From positions 166,780,001 to 166,844,000 of the forward strand of contig OZ024741.1 of NCBI GenBank assembly GCA_964016885.1: a DNA stretch of 64,000 nucleotides, in the 5' to 3' direction. Shown piece by piece: positions 8,044 to 39,211 of the stretch. Numbering within the stretch: position 1 is the stretch's first letter; the number at the start of each line of letters is the position of its first letter. Origin of the DNA: Eledone cirrhosa (taxonomy: Eukaryota). A program made the translations under genes and the position numbers. The notes beneath the pieces were generated by a model that had not been told where the DNA came from, did no database searches, and worked only from the letters and a program-made list of their open reading frames with translations.

Positions 8044-8238
8044 ATAGGAACGAGTAGGACCCCGACAGCTGAGCTCAAGCCGTTTCGACGGCTAATTCTG
8101 GACAGAATTAGCCGTCGAAACGGCTTGAGCTCAGCCGCCGGGGTCCTACTCGTTCCTATTACCCACTCTACTACCCTAAGTATTGAGTACTTTGGTGCGT
8201 TATGGTCCACCTGGTTCCTTACCACATTTCCTTCGTTA
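8044..8238 (+). mobile_element. ~200-bp hairpin element in (TA)n (family A, copy 1)
   Basis: Palindrome 8044-8159 plus unique tail ending ccacatttccttcgtta. Recurs at 32339, 38273, 39005 and, diverged, at 62735. Confidence 0.85.
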
Positions 8239-8334
8239 TATATATTATATATATATAACACCCCCTATATATATATTATATATATAGCTCCCACCTCACT
8301 CTCTCTCTCATCCGACCTCCAGTTTCTTCCACAG

Positions 8335-8363
8335 AATGTTGACGCAAATGACAAAGGAATTTG
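8335..8363 (+). CDS. Candidate host-gene exon B (MLTQMTKEF-G)
   Basis: Pyrimidine-rich acceptor tttcttccacag, donor TTG|gtaaat. The 29-nt length fits the phases of both neighbouring exons. Confidence 0.5.
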
Positions 8364-8569
8364 GTAAATTGCTTACTATTCCTATAGTTTTTATCTCAGC
8401 TGAAACTAAAAATAGAATTAACTATTATTTATCCAGCTTAAATTAACCCATTTACCTCCAGTCATTCGGTGAGAAACTCACTGTCGCCATTCACTTCTGC
8501 TTCACCCACAAAAATAACCAACCAGTAAAATCCATTTCAATTGTTTTTTGTTATAGTTTTTTGTATACC

Positions 8570-9089
8570 GGAATAGGCTACGTAGCCGGTCCCGGCAAAA
8601 TAGACAAACATGCTTTTAAAGCTTATTTTACCGGTAAACCCTGAAGGGACGCAACTCTAGCCGGGGTCCCGGAAGCTTATTTTACACTAAATAATAGTGT
8701 TTTAGAACCCAGGTAGTGACTACTTACTATCTTTAACCCAGGTCGTGACTTTCTGCTAAAATTCTTAATTTCGAAAATATTTGTCTTTCTGCTAAATGAC
8801 TAAATTTCGAAAATATTTGACTACTAAAACTCTTAAGCCATGGAACTCGGTAGATGTGTGCGTACGTGACTAAAGCGTAATTTACGTTACGAATGCACGA
8901 AACTCAAGCAGAATTATAAGATGATGACTAAGTGATTTTAACATGTTTTTTAACAATTGATGGTGGAAAAGATTTCAAATTGTCTTAACAATTGTCTTAA
9001 CTCGGTCCGCAACTCATGGTGTCTGACATTCTTGCCGGCTAAATAGCCTGGGAGTCTATTTTGCCGGTACCGGCTACATAGCTTATTCC
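8570..9089. mobile_element. MITE with 36-bp terminal inverted repeats
   Basis: ggaataggctacgtagccggtcccggcaaaatagac matches the reverse complement of 9054-9089 at 33/36 positions. Confidence 0.75.
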
Positions 9090-9890
9090 AATTATATATA
9101 TATATATATATATACTCTCATGTCCCAAATAATAGGGGGGGGGGGGTGAATAAGAGGGGGTTTGGAGATTTGGTCAAATTCTTATAAGCAGGTGGTGGGG
9201 TTGGAATAAACGAGGGGTTTATGAAATCGTAAATTGTATAGTGTACTTCGTAAATATGGGATTTCTTGTAATGTTCTTTTTTTGTCATATATAATGTCTT
9301 TTTAATGTAAAATAATTTTTTTAAATGTAAAATAACATTTTTTAAATGTAAAATAAAGAGAAGAAATCGGAATATTATTCTCTGAAAGTTCCTTAAACCT
9401 TGAAGAAAGGAATTTAAGTCCCGAAATATTAGAACGGAAGAAACAAGAGCAACACCAAAAAACAAAACAAAGTTTAGCAGATAACATACTTTTCCGTTGC
9501 CTCATCTTACAGTCTACTTTGCATTGTTTAACATTATATCTCTTTCCACATTATATAAAATAAAATTATTATTAGATTCTCCAGCTGCTGTATCGATATG
9601 AAACACTTACAAAAAAAATTTCGCCGGAGACAGATTAACAAAATTTAATAAGCAGGGGTGGAAAAAATCTGAGGTGGGGTCGATGATTCAAGACTCGAGA
9701 GCATTTGATTGAAGACAAGTATAGATTTCTTGATTTTTTCTAACTACGTTTCTGGTTTGTTTCCGTTTCTAAAATGTTATAGTGGTTAAAAAGGAGCGGG
9801 GTGAATGTGACTTAGTTAGGGTTATCAATGGTAGATTCTGCTGGGATACTGAAGAGCCCACGGGAGGCATGTATTAGTTTAATTGGTCAA

Positions 9891-10210
9891 TATTACTACT
9901 ACTACTACTACTACTACTACTACTACTACTACTACTACTACTACTACTATTACCACCACCACCACCACCACTACTACTACTACTACTACTACTACTACTT
10001 AGCCCACTTATTCTTGAGAGGGTCGTGAAGGCAGAATTCTGAAACACGCCTTATATAGAGTCCTGTCCGAAGTAACCGTTTTCAAATGATCCGGGTGGAT
10101 ACCCTAGCAAAACCAACAGAGCTTATGGATCTTATCCAACCATTTCACTTGTTCTTTGTCGGTTGGTTTTGACCGTAAAATCTGATCAGCGATTAATTTT
10201 GGATTATGTT
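9891..10210 (-). mobile_element. RTE-clade LINE 3' end with (TAG)n tail
   Basis: Minus-strand translation LGIHPDHLKTVTSDRTLYKACFRILPSRPSQE* resembles RTE C-termini and runs into the (TAG)n repeat. Confidence 0.55.
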
Positions 10211-10625
10211 TCTAAGTATCTAAGTCTATAATATGACAATTGTTCAAACTTTGAGAAGAAAGAATAGAATGAAAAATAAGAAAATATATTTTTAAAAAAA
10301 AACGGAAAAGGAAGGGAAAGGCAAGGGTTCCAGTGTCACAGAAGAAAGGGGATGATTGGGCTCTGTGCCTAGGGCGCGGTGGTAATGGGACTGCGCCTCG
10401 CGGATAGGACTGCAAAAGCATTCCCGCTGACAATGTCTAGTGACACCCGTTGCAACAGCCACACCACCTCGCGGGGCTCCTTCCTCAGACGAGCCGCCGG
10501 TGTTCCAATCTTGCGGAGAAGCTCGGCAGTACGGGGCCCAAAGTACTCCCGATGTCTTGGCGGTGACTGGTGCGAAGAGGAAGAGGATTACACAAAGAAT
10601 CAATTGATACGCTGCTGCTAAGTTC
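10210..10625 (-). mobile_element. CRE-like (RLE) non-LTR 3' relic
   Basis: Homologous by eye to 15284-15970, including the AKTSGVLWAP..AELLRKIG region and 3' UTR ttgcctttcccttccttttcc. Confidence 0.6.
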
Positions 10626-36312: not shown

Positions 36313-36639
36313 TCTTTCTCTCTCTTTAAGATGATAATCTTGAAATTAATAACAATCTTTGCTGCCCGCAATACAGACTAATGGAAGAAGGAGTAAATAC
36401 CAATGCTGTTGAAACCTCCAGTGCATATGTTCCCACACATCGCTGTCCTTCTCTATCAAACCACGATGAGGGCATCACGCCAGAGGAAAGAGCTGAATGG
36501 AGATGGAATGGCTGATACAGCAGATATCTTGGTTGTTCTTTGTGACGATGCTTTTGCCATCATGTCAATGGTGCATAGCTAAGATATGCTATTCAACTGA
36601 GAGTGTCGAGATTTATTTATTTATTTTGCTGTATATTTG

Positions 36640-37990
36640 AAATGCAGAGTTCATTCGCTACCAGTCAAGGTCCACTTCACAACACTATTCAATCAACGTG
36701 TTAGCATTAACAAAAAATCATTTAAGGGCGTCAGTTTTTATTATCTTTATTACACACGTCGGTTTATCTTTGTCCTTCTCCACTTTTTGTGTATCCATGT
36801 TATCTGTCAAATCTACTAATTCTTCAGTAAAAAGTTCCCCTTTCTCGCTATCTATCAATAATCAATTGTATAATGTTATCTTCCGTAACCACATACAATC
36901 CAGCCCCTCCTGCCAATTTCGAAAATTCTTCTATGACTGTAGCGTTCTCCTCTACCGACTCCAATCCTTCAAAATTGTTCTTTGATTCAGGTAAAGAATT
37001 TCCTTCCTTCCAAACTACATTTTGTAGTTTGTGATAGAGCTTTACTTGTCGATCTCAATATAATGGACGGCATTTAAAATGTTAAATTACCACCCGTAAT
37101 ATTTTACAGTTATATCAGGGTTTAAGTCTAATACACTGACTATTTTAGTAATTCCTGGGAGCAATACCCCCTTCAGAAATGTTATGCGCTGGGCCATCGG
37201 CTAGAGAACAGATATGTCTAGAGGCACGTAAGCTACCTTTAATTTAAACATCATTTGAACTTCAAGATCTGAAGGATTCTTATTATAACATAACAACTCC
37301 CCTTTAAAATGGTACTCTACTGTATGATCAGTAAAGTCTTTGGAACAAAGGGGAAACAAACACTGATTATAGTCACTATTATGTAATAAAATATCACTTG
37401 AAGTAGATACATTTAAAATGTTAAATGACCAGCCGTAATATATAATTGTAATAACAGTTATATCAAGGTTTGTGTCTAATACATTGACCATTTGCTTTTA
37501 AATTCCTGGGGGCAATACGCCTTAAGAGTTATTACGCCTTGGTGCATCGGCTGGGGAAGAGATGTGTTTAGAAGAATGCAAGCTACGTATATTTTAAACG
37601 TCATTTGATCTTCAAGGCCTGAAAGATGGCTCGAAGTGTTGTCTTACAAAAGAACAGCGTTGGATGTTAAACTATTGTCAATGTAAAAGTTTTTCAAAAC
37701 AACGCAAAAAACTCACAAATATTCTGTTCTGGATAGAATTCTTTATTTGCGATTGGTTCAGTTTTCCTAAGAATTAGTTATGCAAATAAAAAACGCTTCG
37801 TTCGGATGATCAAGGTAAATCTTATACAACAAAGAATTTCGTAGAAGCGAAATGAGATCATGTTTGTAAATATGCACTTCCTCACTGATTGGACCAAATT
37901 GTACCGATTGCGCAGCGAAGAAAATTTGAACTAGAGCAATTTTCAAACCCGCGTAAATCAAACCGGTGAAAAGTCAGCCTACCTGTTTCT
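36640..37990 (-). mobile_element. Decayed pogo/Tigger-like relic, copy 2, with an internal older duplication
   Basis: Reverse complement of 1363-2093. 37410-37620 is a diverged repeat of 37070-37275. Confidence 0.45.
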
Positions 37991-38104
37991 GTCTGTGTAC
38001 GTGCGCGCGTGTATATATATATATATATATATATATATATATATATATATATATATATATATAGTAGTGAAAGATGGTCGGCTGTACAAGAAGGGTTTTA
38101 TTTA

Positions 38105-38219
38105 CAGTATTAACAATTGTTTCATTGATCAGGTGAGTCTAAAGGCCGCTAATCACTCGAAGTTGCATTACTCGACCTTAAATACAGTCTGTGTCTCTGA
38201 TCAAACCATCGGAATACTG
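38105..38219 (-). ncRNA. Degenerate type-I hammerhead motif
   Basis: cagtatt CCGATGG [ttgatcag..ctgatcaa] GAAA caattg TT aatactg. All three helices present; two core substitutions. Confidence 0.55.
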
Positions 38220-38272
38220 CGTGTATATATATATATATATATATATATATATATATATATATATATATATAT

Positions 38273-38471
38273 ATAGGAACCAGTAAGACCCCGACGGCTG
38301 AGCTCAAGCCGTTTCGACGGCTAATTCCGGACCTAATTCTGGCTCCAGAATTAGCCGCCGAAACGGCTTGAGCTTAGCCGTCGGGGTCTTACTGGTTCCT
38401 ATTACCCACTCTACTACCCTAAGTATTGAGTACTTTGGTGCGTTATGGTCCACCTGACCACATTTCCTTCG
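38273..38471 (+). mobile_element. Hairpin element family A, copy 3
   Basis: Palindrome 38273-38402 with mirrored variant ggaaccagtaagacc / ggtcttactggttcc. Confidence 0.85.
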
Positions 38472-39004
38472 ATATATATATATATATATATATACATATA
38501 TATATACACACGCACACACACACACACACACACACACACACACACACACACACACACACACACACACACACACACACACACACACACACACATATATATA
38601 AGTGTGTGTTTGTATATGATCACACATACACACATATGGTTGTTGTGGTGATGGTTGCTGACGTAACTATATAGTGAAGGTGGTAGCATAGTGGTGAGGA
38701 TGGTGGCTATGATGATGATGATGATGATAACGATGATTGCGCACAAGGTAGTAAAGAGGCTCAAATTACATTGATACACATCAGAAATAAACAGATGGCT
38801 CACTCACGTACACTTTTACACACACTCACACACTTACTCACTCGCACTCACACACTCTTTGACACATACACACACACATACACTCACTCACAAACACTGA
38901 CACATATGAGAAGTAGAGGGAGAGAGGGCGATGATGGAGATAGATAGATATGTAAATAGCTAGCTAGCTATATATATATATATATATATATATATATATA
39001 TATA

Positions 39005-39211
39005 TAACGAAGGAAATGTGGTAAGGAATCAGGTGGACCATAACGCACCAAAGTACTCAATACTTAGGGTAGTAGAGTGGGTAATAGGTACGAGTAGGAC
39101 CCCGACGGCTGAGCTCAAGCCGTTTCGACGGCTAATTCTGGACTTTTTTTAGTCCAGAATTAGCCGTCGAAACGGCTTGAGCTCAGCCGTCGGGGTCCTA
39201 CTCGTACCTAT
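39005..39211 (-). mobile_element. Hairpin element family A, copy 4
   Basis: Palindrome 39084-39211 with mirrored variant ggtacgag / ctcgtacc and a T-rich loop. Confidence 0.85.

What the first reader, a model, noticed from the sequence alone, without database searches (positions are those of the whole stretch)
8044..39211. Family A hairpins look like hammerheads whose CUGAUGA half was overwritten by fold-back copying
Seen: four ~200-bp elements (8044, 32339, 38273, 39005), all inside (TA)n, each contain a ~120-bp palindrome. One arm reads helix-GAAA-cggct..agccg-UC-ggggtcc, a well-formed HHR 3' half (helix III plus GUC). Where CUGANGA should lie, between ggacccc and gacggctaattc, the other arm has the reverse complement of that same half. 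The loop differs in every copy, copy-specific substitutions are mirrored in both arms (ggaaccagtaag/cttactggttcc; ggtacgag/ctcgtacc), and the short arm always stops at cctat|(AT)n. Inference: the cDNA snaps back at helix II and self-primes, regenerating the hairpin at each insertion; alternatively, the arms are homogenised by conversion.
Basis: partly seen in the sequence, partly recalled or inferred. Interest (0 to 1): 0.75.

Follow-up and report, generated by a model that had tools for sequence, protein, structure and literature searches.

The report
Twice-copied Penelope retrotransposon leader stubs
These short DNA palindromes are stubs of a Penelope-type jumping gene present in many thousands of copies, likely made when one RNA is copied twice from two fixed start points and the copies are joined back to back, and their centres pile up at two sharp positions, one of them the predicted cut site of the element's ribozyme.

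Summary
The four palindromes are real. They are stubs of a Hydra-clade Penelope-like element (PLE), with about 17,000 tail-less and 17,000 tailed arms genome-wide. The parent is a 3.1-kb unit with a 719-aa RT/GIY-YIG ORF. It carries the whole hammerhead motif, with core YUGANAA (mostly U3-A8) instead of CUGANGA. So the progenitor exists, but nothing was overwritten: the arms stop about 40 nt short of that core.

Simple snap-back fits poorly. The tail-less arm holds element sequence missing from its partner in 38 of 118 insertions, and 9 pairs do not overlap.

Likeliest mechanism (inferred): two target-primed cDNAs from two fixed start sites on one RNA, joined at its 5' end. Centres pile up at an initiator-like site inside loop II (main class) and at the predicted ribozyme cut (about 5% in one subfamily), usually in both arms together.

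The architecture is in print, and this scan has noted such stubs on other DNA. What this adds is the counts and the cut-site footprint. No RNA data were available.

The parts
8044..8103 (-). Copy 1, tail-less arm (element positions +2 to -57; 0 = T of the CCT at the short end), joined to (TA)n
8103..8239 (+). Copy 1, tailed arm (-54 to +82)
8117..8146 (+). Copy 1 hammerhead 3' half: GAAA 8117-8120, helix III, predicted cut after 8139 (triplet here GCC), helix I 3' strand
8158..8239 (+). Copy 1 tail (+1 to +82), present on one arm only; in the parent it runs on towards the ORF
32339..32540 (+). Copy 2: tail-less arm 32339-32399 (inverted), tailed arm 32401-32540; GAAG for GAAA at 32418; predicted cut after 32440
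38273..38475 (+). Copy 3, subfamily 2: tail-less arm 38273-38332 (inverted), tailed arm 38344-38475, element-like bases inserted in the centre; predicted cut after 38382
39004..39211 (-). Copy 4: tailed arm 39004-39144, tail-less arm 39148-39211, A/T run in the centre, rare T>A variant in both arms
62735..62977 (-). Copy 5 (older subfamily): tail-less arm of about 240 nt that runs through the whole hammerhead motif
62834..62840 (-). Hammerhead 5' core in copy 5, UUGAAAA (U3-A8 form): the half missing from copies 1-4
62975..63002 (+). Copy 5 tailed arm, only +55 to +82; no overlap with the other arm, so no palindrome

Best explanation
Family A elements are short insertions of a Hydra-type Penelope-like retrotransposon, each likely made of two cDNAs that are primed on opposite strands of a cut (TA)n target, start at two fixed sites on one RNA and are joined head to head where the RNA's 5' end stops them. 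Shown: the parent element and its ORF, the two fixed outer ends (+2 and +82, both at a TAT junction), one of each per insertion, two sharp inner boundaries (-58 to -62 and -17), and the free trimming of either arm. Inferred: the outer ends are RT start sites, as measured in vitro for another PLE. The main boundary is a transcription start (TYAGT, with an AT-rich TATA-like word about 29 nt upstream) lying inside loop II of the ribozyme, so the leader RNA never contains the UUGANAA half. The -17 boundary is the 5' end left by ribozyme cleavage of read-through RNA. The join is made by template jumping or end-joining, with added A's and short templated inserts. Copying the ORF would need uncut read-through RNA, which would explain why stubs vastly outnumber full copies.
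For: Parent found: tandem 3,118-bp unit, 719-aa ORF with YRDD, NVIY..YIG, DKT, RWR and CxCx5C. 120 of 145 head-to-head junctions pair a tail-less with a tailed arm; genome-wide counts are 17,147 and 16,955. In 118 such insertions the tail-less arm carries >=3 element bases absent from the tailed arm in 38 (reverse 28), >=20 bases in 19 (reverse 5), and 9 pairs do not overlap. Among the 28 youngest the counts are 11 versus 3. In L081 the tail-less arm is 5 kb with a whole ORF while the tailed arm is 0.83 kb. Furthest arm end is -58 in 32 and -57 in 22 of 126, and beyond -62 in only 2; loops with both runs read A then T in 8 of 8. In 50 very short palindromes the furthest end is exactly -17 in 26, -18 in 5 (4 are the blunt CCCCGGGG join) and -19 to -21 in none. 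Mixed insertions (one arm long, one at the cut) number about 20-35 (by eye) against roughly 1,500 expected from independent templates (my arithmetic). 35 insertions join arms of two subfamilies. The anole PLE protein cuts and extends both strands and starts at two sites that bound the tail (PMC11167929).
Against: No RNA run was listed, so neither 5' end nor cleavage was observed. Coupling of the two inner ends and 99.6% subfamily agreement between arms (8,169 of 8,204) are also what snap-back predicts. Rare variants are mirrored more often than chance: 2 of 25 carriers for one allele against about 0.04 expected, and 6 of 105 rare alleles in the sample; this needs rare source copies, RT error with snap-back, or some conversion. 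The 33-versus-21 excess at >=5 bases is not significant (p 0.13); the argument rests on such cases existing at all. In the anole system start sites did not differ between strands, and no reads ended at the ribozyme cut. No excess of a cap-derived C was seen after -58 (7 C, 7 T, 3 G). The ribozyme region folds no better than shuffles (z -0.56), 3 of 5 parents folded prefer a rival hairpin, and Rfam finds no hammerhead.
Confidence: 0.62

Rival explanations
1. Snap-back (first reader; self-priming also proposed by Arkhipova 2013): one cDNA starts at +82, reaches the RNA 5' end or the loop II hairpin, folds back, copies itself to +2 and is joined to the target; centres are trimmed during or after integration.
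For: Explains subfamily agreement of the arms, coupled inner ends and the excess of mirrored rare variants. The main centre lies on the 3' strand of a small native hairpin in loop II. Self-priming is argued in PMC3846280.
Against: The tailed arm should always be the longer; it is not, even in the youngest copies. Nine pairs do not overlap, and window copy 5 and L081 have short-ended arms far longer than their partners. Six of 118 have no loop at all. It gives no reason for the fixed stop at +2, nor for 35 two-subfamily chimeras.
Confidence: 0.2
2. Two cDNAs as in the best explanation, but from two RNA molecules held by a protein dimer (both from the one source active in that cell), or from a small RNA circle.
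For: The 35 chimeras need two templates or conversion. The tailed arm shows no pile-up where it would meet the inner cDNA. Tandem units that restart at -57 or -61 (L170, L179) and joints to -58/-59 in run X1 fit template jumps or circles. A dimer was predicted for the anole protein.
Against: One source should yield both cut and uncut RNAs, yet mixed insertions are about 50-fold rarer than independence predicts. The restart joints start from different downstream positions, so no single circle is indicated.
Confidence: 0.15
3. A palindromic master element (TIR MITE) is copied as a unit, and arms are kept alike by conversion.
Against: The sequence is the pLTR and leader of a PLE. The two ends are not inverted repeats of each other. 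84 of 126 loops differ, arm lengths run from tens of bases to 5 kb, and within-copy arm divergence about equals between-copy divergence.
Confidence: 0.03

Closest known systems
Hydra-clade Penelope-like elements (Craig et al. 2021, PMC8557442; passages and the Hydra section read)
   Same: C-terminal GIY-YIG, DKT, CxCx5C linker, CxxC and CxH motifs, single ORF, hammerhead in the pLTR, insertion in (TA)n.
   Different: RWR for RWK; unit 3.1 kb against 'generally <3 kb'; ribozyme core mostly U3-A8 with a long loop II, where that paper reports canonical motifs. No tree was built, and its supplementary family list was not seen, so this family may already be listed there.
Inverted pLTR plus one-sided tail of EN+ PLE insertions (PMC3846280, passages and Discussion; PMC8557442 Fig. 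2 legend)
   Same: An inverted 5'-truncated copy head to head with the direct copy, a tail on one end only, palindromes at the junction.
   Different: Tail is about 80 nt, not 30-40. Most insertions here are only the leader. The arm-length data argue against the self-priming reading given there.
Anole Poseidon PAc in vitro (Frangieh et al. 2024, PMC11167929; parts 1-2 of 4 and passages read)
   Same: Two RT start sites bounding the tail, downstream of the ribozyme; AT-rich target; both strands cut and extended.
   Different: In the parts read, that paper does not explain inverted insertions, saw no strand difference in start site, and found no RNA ends at the ribozyme cut. Here each insertion uses one of each end, and a class ends at the predicted cut.
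U3-A8 hammerhead variant of Schistosoma Cercyon PLEs (Cervera and de la Pena 2014, PMC4209133; passages)
   Same: U3-A8 in place of C3-G8 in a PLE pLTR type I motif.
   Different: Those are minimal motifs; this one has a 5-bp helix III with a 7-nt loop and a helix II arm of about 50 nt. Some parents here have C3 with A8, a mismatch.
LINE-1 twin priming and R2 template jumping
   Same: Two target primers on one RNA give an inversion; RT jumps at the RNA 5' end with added bases.
   Different: Here the second start is fixed, occurs in nearly every insertion, and the two cDNAs usually overlap, so a palindrome results.

Membership tests
EN+ Penelope-like element | Single ORF with RT and GIY-YIG endonuclease | tested here: met
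   719-aa ORF with YRDD at 348 and NVIY/YIG at 590/606; 2,054 homologues, best 120 at 38-54% identity, unnamed. Pfam gave no match, so domain names rest on motifs.
EN+ Penelope-like element | Partial tandems forming pLTRs, inverted 5'-truncated copy, tail at one end | tested here: met
   L081-L085; 120 of 145 junctions pair one tailed with one tail-less arm.
Hydra clade | DKT, RWK, CxCx5C linker, CxxC and CxH, C-terminal EN | tested here: met
   DKT 117, RWR 37 (R for K), CNCPDRSIC 572, CNLC 670, CKH 698 against the description.
Hydra clade | Insertion into (TA)n | tested here: met
   17,147 short ends run directly into ATATA; (AT)n at the tailed end of all 30 loci.
Hydra clade | Placement in the RT phylogeny | not tested
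   No named reference sequences were fetched.
Type I hammerhead ribozyme (parent pLTR) | Three helices around the core, with a 3-8 pair, GAAA and UH | tested here: inconclusive
   L081 and L083 fold into it as the minimum-energy structure, L215, L152 and L085 do not. Of 36 parent arms the script read TTGAGAA 13, TTGATAA 7, CTGAGAA 6, three single others, 7 unparsed; position 7 varies as expected, but C3-A8 copies lack the pair. No Rfam match.
Type I hammerhead ribozyme (parent pLTR) | Self-cleavage after GUC | not testable with these tools
   Indirect only: arm ends pile up exactly at the predicted cut, 26 of 50.
Type I hammerhead ribozyme (window copies 1-4) | 5' core half present | tested here: not met
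   Both arms end at -54 to -61; the core lies near -100.
TIR MITE | Terminal inverted repeats and a fixed internal sequence | tested here: not met
   Ends differ (+2 and +82), centres vary, parent is an RT element.
Non-LTR retrozyme | Tandem units each with a complete hammerhead (definition in the preprint read) | tested here: not met
   Copies are dispersed and lack the core; the short tandem L179 restarts at -61, also without it.

The most novel reading that the evidence does not exclude
Each stub is a fossil double 5'-RACE. The PLE protein copies one RNA twice, once from each of two fixed start sites, and splices the two cDNAs together. The thousands of centres then map the RNA's 5' ends in the germ line: a promoter inside the ribozyme's own loop II, which leaves the leader unable to self-cleave, and the ribozyme cut itself. 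This would explain the inverted-repeat-plus-tail signature of all PLEs and give genomic evidence that a PLE hammerhead cuts in vivo.
Probability: 0.45. Interest if true: 0.72.

Novelty: new member of a known kind. Interest (0 to 1): 0.5.

Why it matters
How PLEs make their inverted, one-tailed insertions is stated as unresolved in the papers read, and so is whether their hammerheads act in vivo. This family offers some 17,000 natural products, young intact-looking parents and sharp boundaries. It separates self-priming from double priming by counting, and names two exact RNA positions to test. The elements themselves are ordinary transposon debris.

Tried and rejected
CUGANGA progenitor: one search gave 0 matches, but my pattern had one N too many and is uninformative. 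One search gave 44 matches; the 20 inspected were chance loops or flanks, with no recurring progenitor. Rfam: no hammerhead in the window or the parent. Pfam: nothing for the ORF. Expression: no RNA holder listed; the contigs laid cannot show starts, strand or level, and are used only for joints. Cap signature at -58: not seen. Correlation of the two inner ends within the main cluster: weak (rho 0.21, p 0.07). A 3' splice acceptor at TTTAG|TCCAG was considered and dropped because no recurring upstream exon appears in the loops. Target-site duplications cannot be read inside (TA)n. A look-up of earlier findings by sequence gave nothing. Rows dropped: 2 of 120 paired junctions (L061:1447 and L171:3968, second alignments of a deleted and a nested copy); L121-L150 as duplicates; L031-L050 as chosen for loop content. 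No structure or complex prediction and no tree were run.
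Full report
OBSERVATION. Each is (TA)n, a short inverted arm, a variable centre, a direct arm with an 80-nt tail, and (TA)n. A 16-mer of the arm has 40,103 exact matches in the 3.0-Gb genome and its reversed control has none. A fifth member at 62735-63002 has a 240-nt short-ended arm and a 28-nt tailed arm that do not overlap. 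I number positions from the T of the CCT at the short end (0); the tail ends at +82.

THE PARENT. Widely spaced inverted hits led to long copies. L081 holds a tandem 3,118-bp unit with a 719-aa ORF bearing YRDD, NVIY..YIG, DKT, RWR, CxCx5C, CxxC and CxH. This matches the printed description of Hydra-clade PLEs, including (TA)n targeting (PMC8557442, section read). Pfam gave no match and the 120 listed homologues carry no useful names, so the clade call rests on motifs. Family A is the end of the pLTR plus the first 82 nt of the leader; the ATG lies 173 nt after position 0.

THE RIBOZYME. No recurring CUGANGA progenitor was found. Parents read ACCCC-YUGANAA-G near -100, then a helix II arm of about 50 nt, GAAA, helix III, GUC and GGGGU. 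Of 36 parent arms the script read TTGAGAA 13, TTGATAA 7, CTGAGAA 6, three single others and 7 unparsed. U3-A8 is a described PLE variant (PMC4209133, passages). The youngest parent folds into the three-helix form as its minimum-energy structure, but 3 of 5 parents tried prefer a rival hairpin, the z-score is -0.56 and Rfam finds nothing. The predicted cut is between -18 and -17. Activity is untested.

ONE TAILED AND ONE TAIL-LESS ARM. Genome-wide there are 17,147 tail-less and 16,955 tailed arms reaching -55. I mapped loci taken from the first hits on contig 1 (2-38 Mb), so the sample is conditioned on one arm reaching -55 and is not random. Of 145 head-to-head junctions 120 pair the two types; two rows were dropped as second alignments. 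Double-tailed copies exist (L022). An inverted copy with a one-sided tail is the known PLE layout. For the anole PLE the tail is the stretch between two RT start sites, and the protein cuts and extends both strands (PMC11167929, parts 1-2 of 4).

TEST OF SNAP-BACK. If the short arm is copied from the tailed cDNA, it must lie within it. In 118 insertions the short arm has 3 or more element bases missing from the tailed arm in 38 (reverse 28), 20 or more in 19 (reverse 5), and 9 pairs do not overlap. In the 28 youngest the counts are 11 and 3, so this is not decay. L081 has a 5-kb short-ended arm facing a 0.83-kb tailed arm. Thirty-five palindromes join subfamily 1 to subfamily 2 arms, against 4,474 and 3,695 matched ones (30 of the 35 inspected). 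Against my reading: 99.6% agreement is also what snap-back predicts, and the excess in one direction at 5 or more bases (33 versus 21) is not significant.

MIRRORED VARIANTS. In 88 insertions, alleles seen in 10 or more copies are mirrored in 130 of 144 cases, in 4-9 copies 19 of 43, in 2-3 copies 5 of 71, in one copy 1 of 34. At non-diagnostic sites the within-copy and same-subfamily between-copy distances are 0.27 and 0.27, 1.85 and 2.04, 0.62 and 0.84, 3.0 and 3.4, 0.75 and 0.75. So arms are mostly not homogenised. The second is rare: 2 mirrored and 23 one-arm cases, where chance gives about 0.04 mirrored (my arithmetic). Another rare allele is mirrored in 2 places. About 6-8% of rare variants are mirrored; rare source copies, RT error with snap-back, or occasional conversion could each do this, and I cannot separate them.

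FIRST BOUNDARY. In 126 palindromes the furthest arm ends at -58 in 32, -57 in 22, -59 to -62 in 27, and beyond -62 in 2 (centres up to 90 nt). Positions -59 to -61 are T, which added A's in the cDNA would mimic, and loops with both runs read A then T in 8 of 8. Position -58 is the A of TTAGT, TCAGT in one subfamily, an initiator-like word (consensus recalled; an initiator-like word in a Penelope pLTR is noted), with TATTTAAA 29 nt upstream. Tandem units restart at -57 and -61 (L170, L179) and run X1 has joints to -58 and -59. I infer a transcription start inside loop II. A stall at the small hairpin there is the alternative; no cap-derived base was seen.

SECOND BOUNDARY. Searches for very short palindromes gave 316 in subfamily 2 and 283 in subfamily 1. 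By eye about 53 of the 97 distinct loci listed have both arms ending at -15 to -18, about half with inserted bases, mostly A or T, that rule out a microhomology deletion. By script, on 20 of the 316 and 30 of the 283, the furthest end is -17 in 26 of 50, -18 in 5 and -19 to -21 in none; the subfamily 1 pattern allowed ends from -8. That is the predicted cut. Insertions with one long arm and one arm at the cut are about 25 of the 100 listed of 133 by eye and 4 of 30 by script, so 20-35, where independent templates would give about 1,500 (rough: patterns differ in stringency). Both arms therefore share one kind of 5' end.

MECHANISM. Most likely (0.62): the protein nicks both strands of (TA)n, one primer starts at +82 and the other at +2 on the same RNA, both run to its 5' end, and the two cDNA ends are joined with trimming, added A's, 1-4-nt overlaps (39 of 118) or short inserts (58 of 118). 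The leader RNA starts downstream of the UUGANAA half, which is why that half is missing. Cut read-through RNA gives the minor class. The parent, the two outer ends, the two boundaries and the arm asymmetry are shown; priming, promoter, cleavage and joining are inferred. That these are PLE stubs is near certain.

NOVELTY. The layout and the self-priming idea are in print. In seven searches (most hits seen only as listings) I found no paper giving the two-cDNA account of inverted PLE insertions or genomic ends at a PLE ribozyme cut; the library lacks most subscription papers and I read no supplements, where such data may sit. Also seen: part 1 of 5 of the retrozyme preprint 10.64898/2026.07.22.740005 and passages of PMC13282606, which do not mention hammerheads. 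The scan's own notes list seven similar stubs on other DNA, one with the same double-priming idea and one with a circle; my reading was logged before that, and those notes are not independent support. Verdict: a new member of a known kind, interest 0.5.

Noticed in passing
window 32180-32310 (-) and 63077-63140 (-); flanks of L013 and L056: A second (TA)n family with a CUGAUGA...GAAAC hammerhead. It begins right at the core, lacks the helix I 5' strand, has tailed and tail-less forms, shares the word GTATTGAGTAC with the family A tail, and shows an inverted junction at the core in L013.
   Followed up: partly
window 49503-49660, 59438-60170, 39403-39455: A third family with the same head-to-head, one-tailed layout and a CUGAUGA word in each arm.
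   Followed up: no
window 7491-8023 and 56880-57162: Near-perfect palindromes of about 530 and 280 bp in (TA)n, related to each other by eye; the first abuts copy 1.
   Followed up: no
window 40608-48755 (-), 33454-35755, 21302-22481: A LINE with an upstream 625-aa frame and a 1,166-aa endonuclease/RT frame, followed by a tandem partial copy and older fragments; L1/Tx1-like by eye.
   Followed up: no
window 4694, 13384, 16077, 18914, 23480, 25062, 29854, 36123, 53457, 53852: A dispersed family of about 190 bp, at least ten copies, 85-98% alike; probably a SINE.
   Followed up: no
window 6434 (-), 28657 (-), 56613 (+), 693 (-), 4973 (-), 61612 (-): Further CUGANGA...GAAA motifs of other families.
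   Followed up: no
window 60248-61497: A direct repeat of 384 bp overlapping a 533-bp perfect palindrome.
   Followed up: no
L179:414-1071 and L170:2938-4096: Tandem mini-units of the family A parent that run from about -60 to +195 (three times) or to +900, i.e. joints back to the main boundary.
   Followed up: partly
L084:2594-3949 (-) and L083:1-597 (-): ORF pieces of other PLE-like families nested in or beside family A insertions.
   Followed up: no
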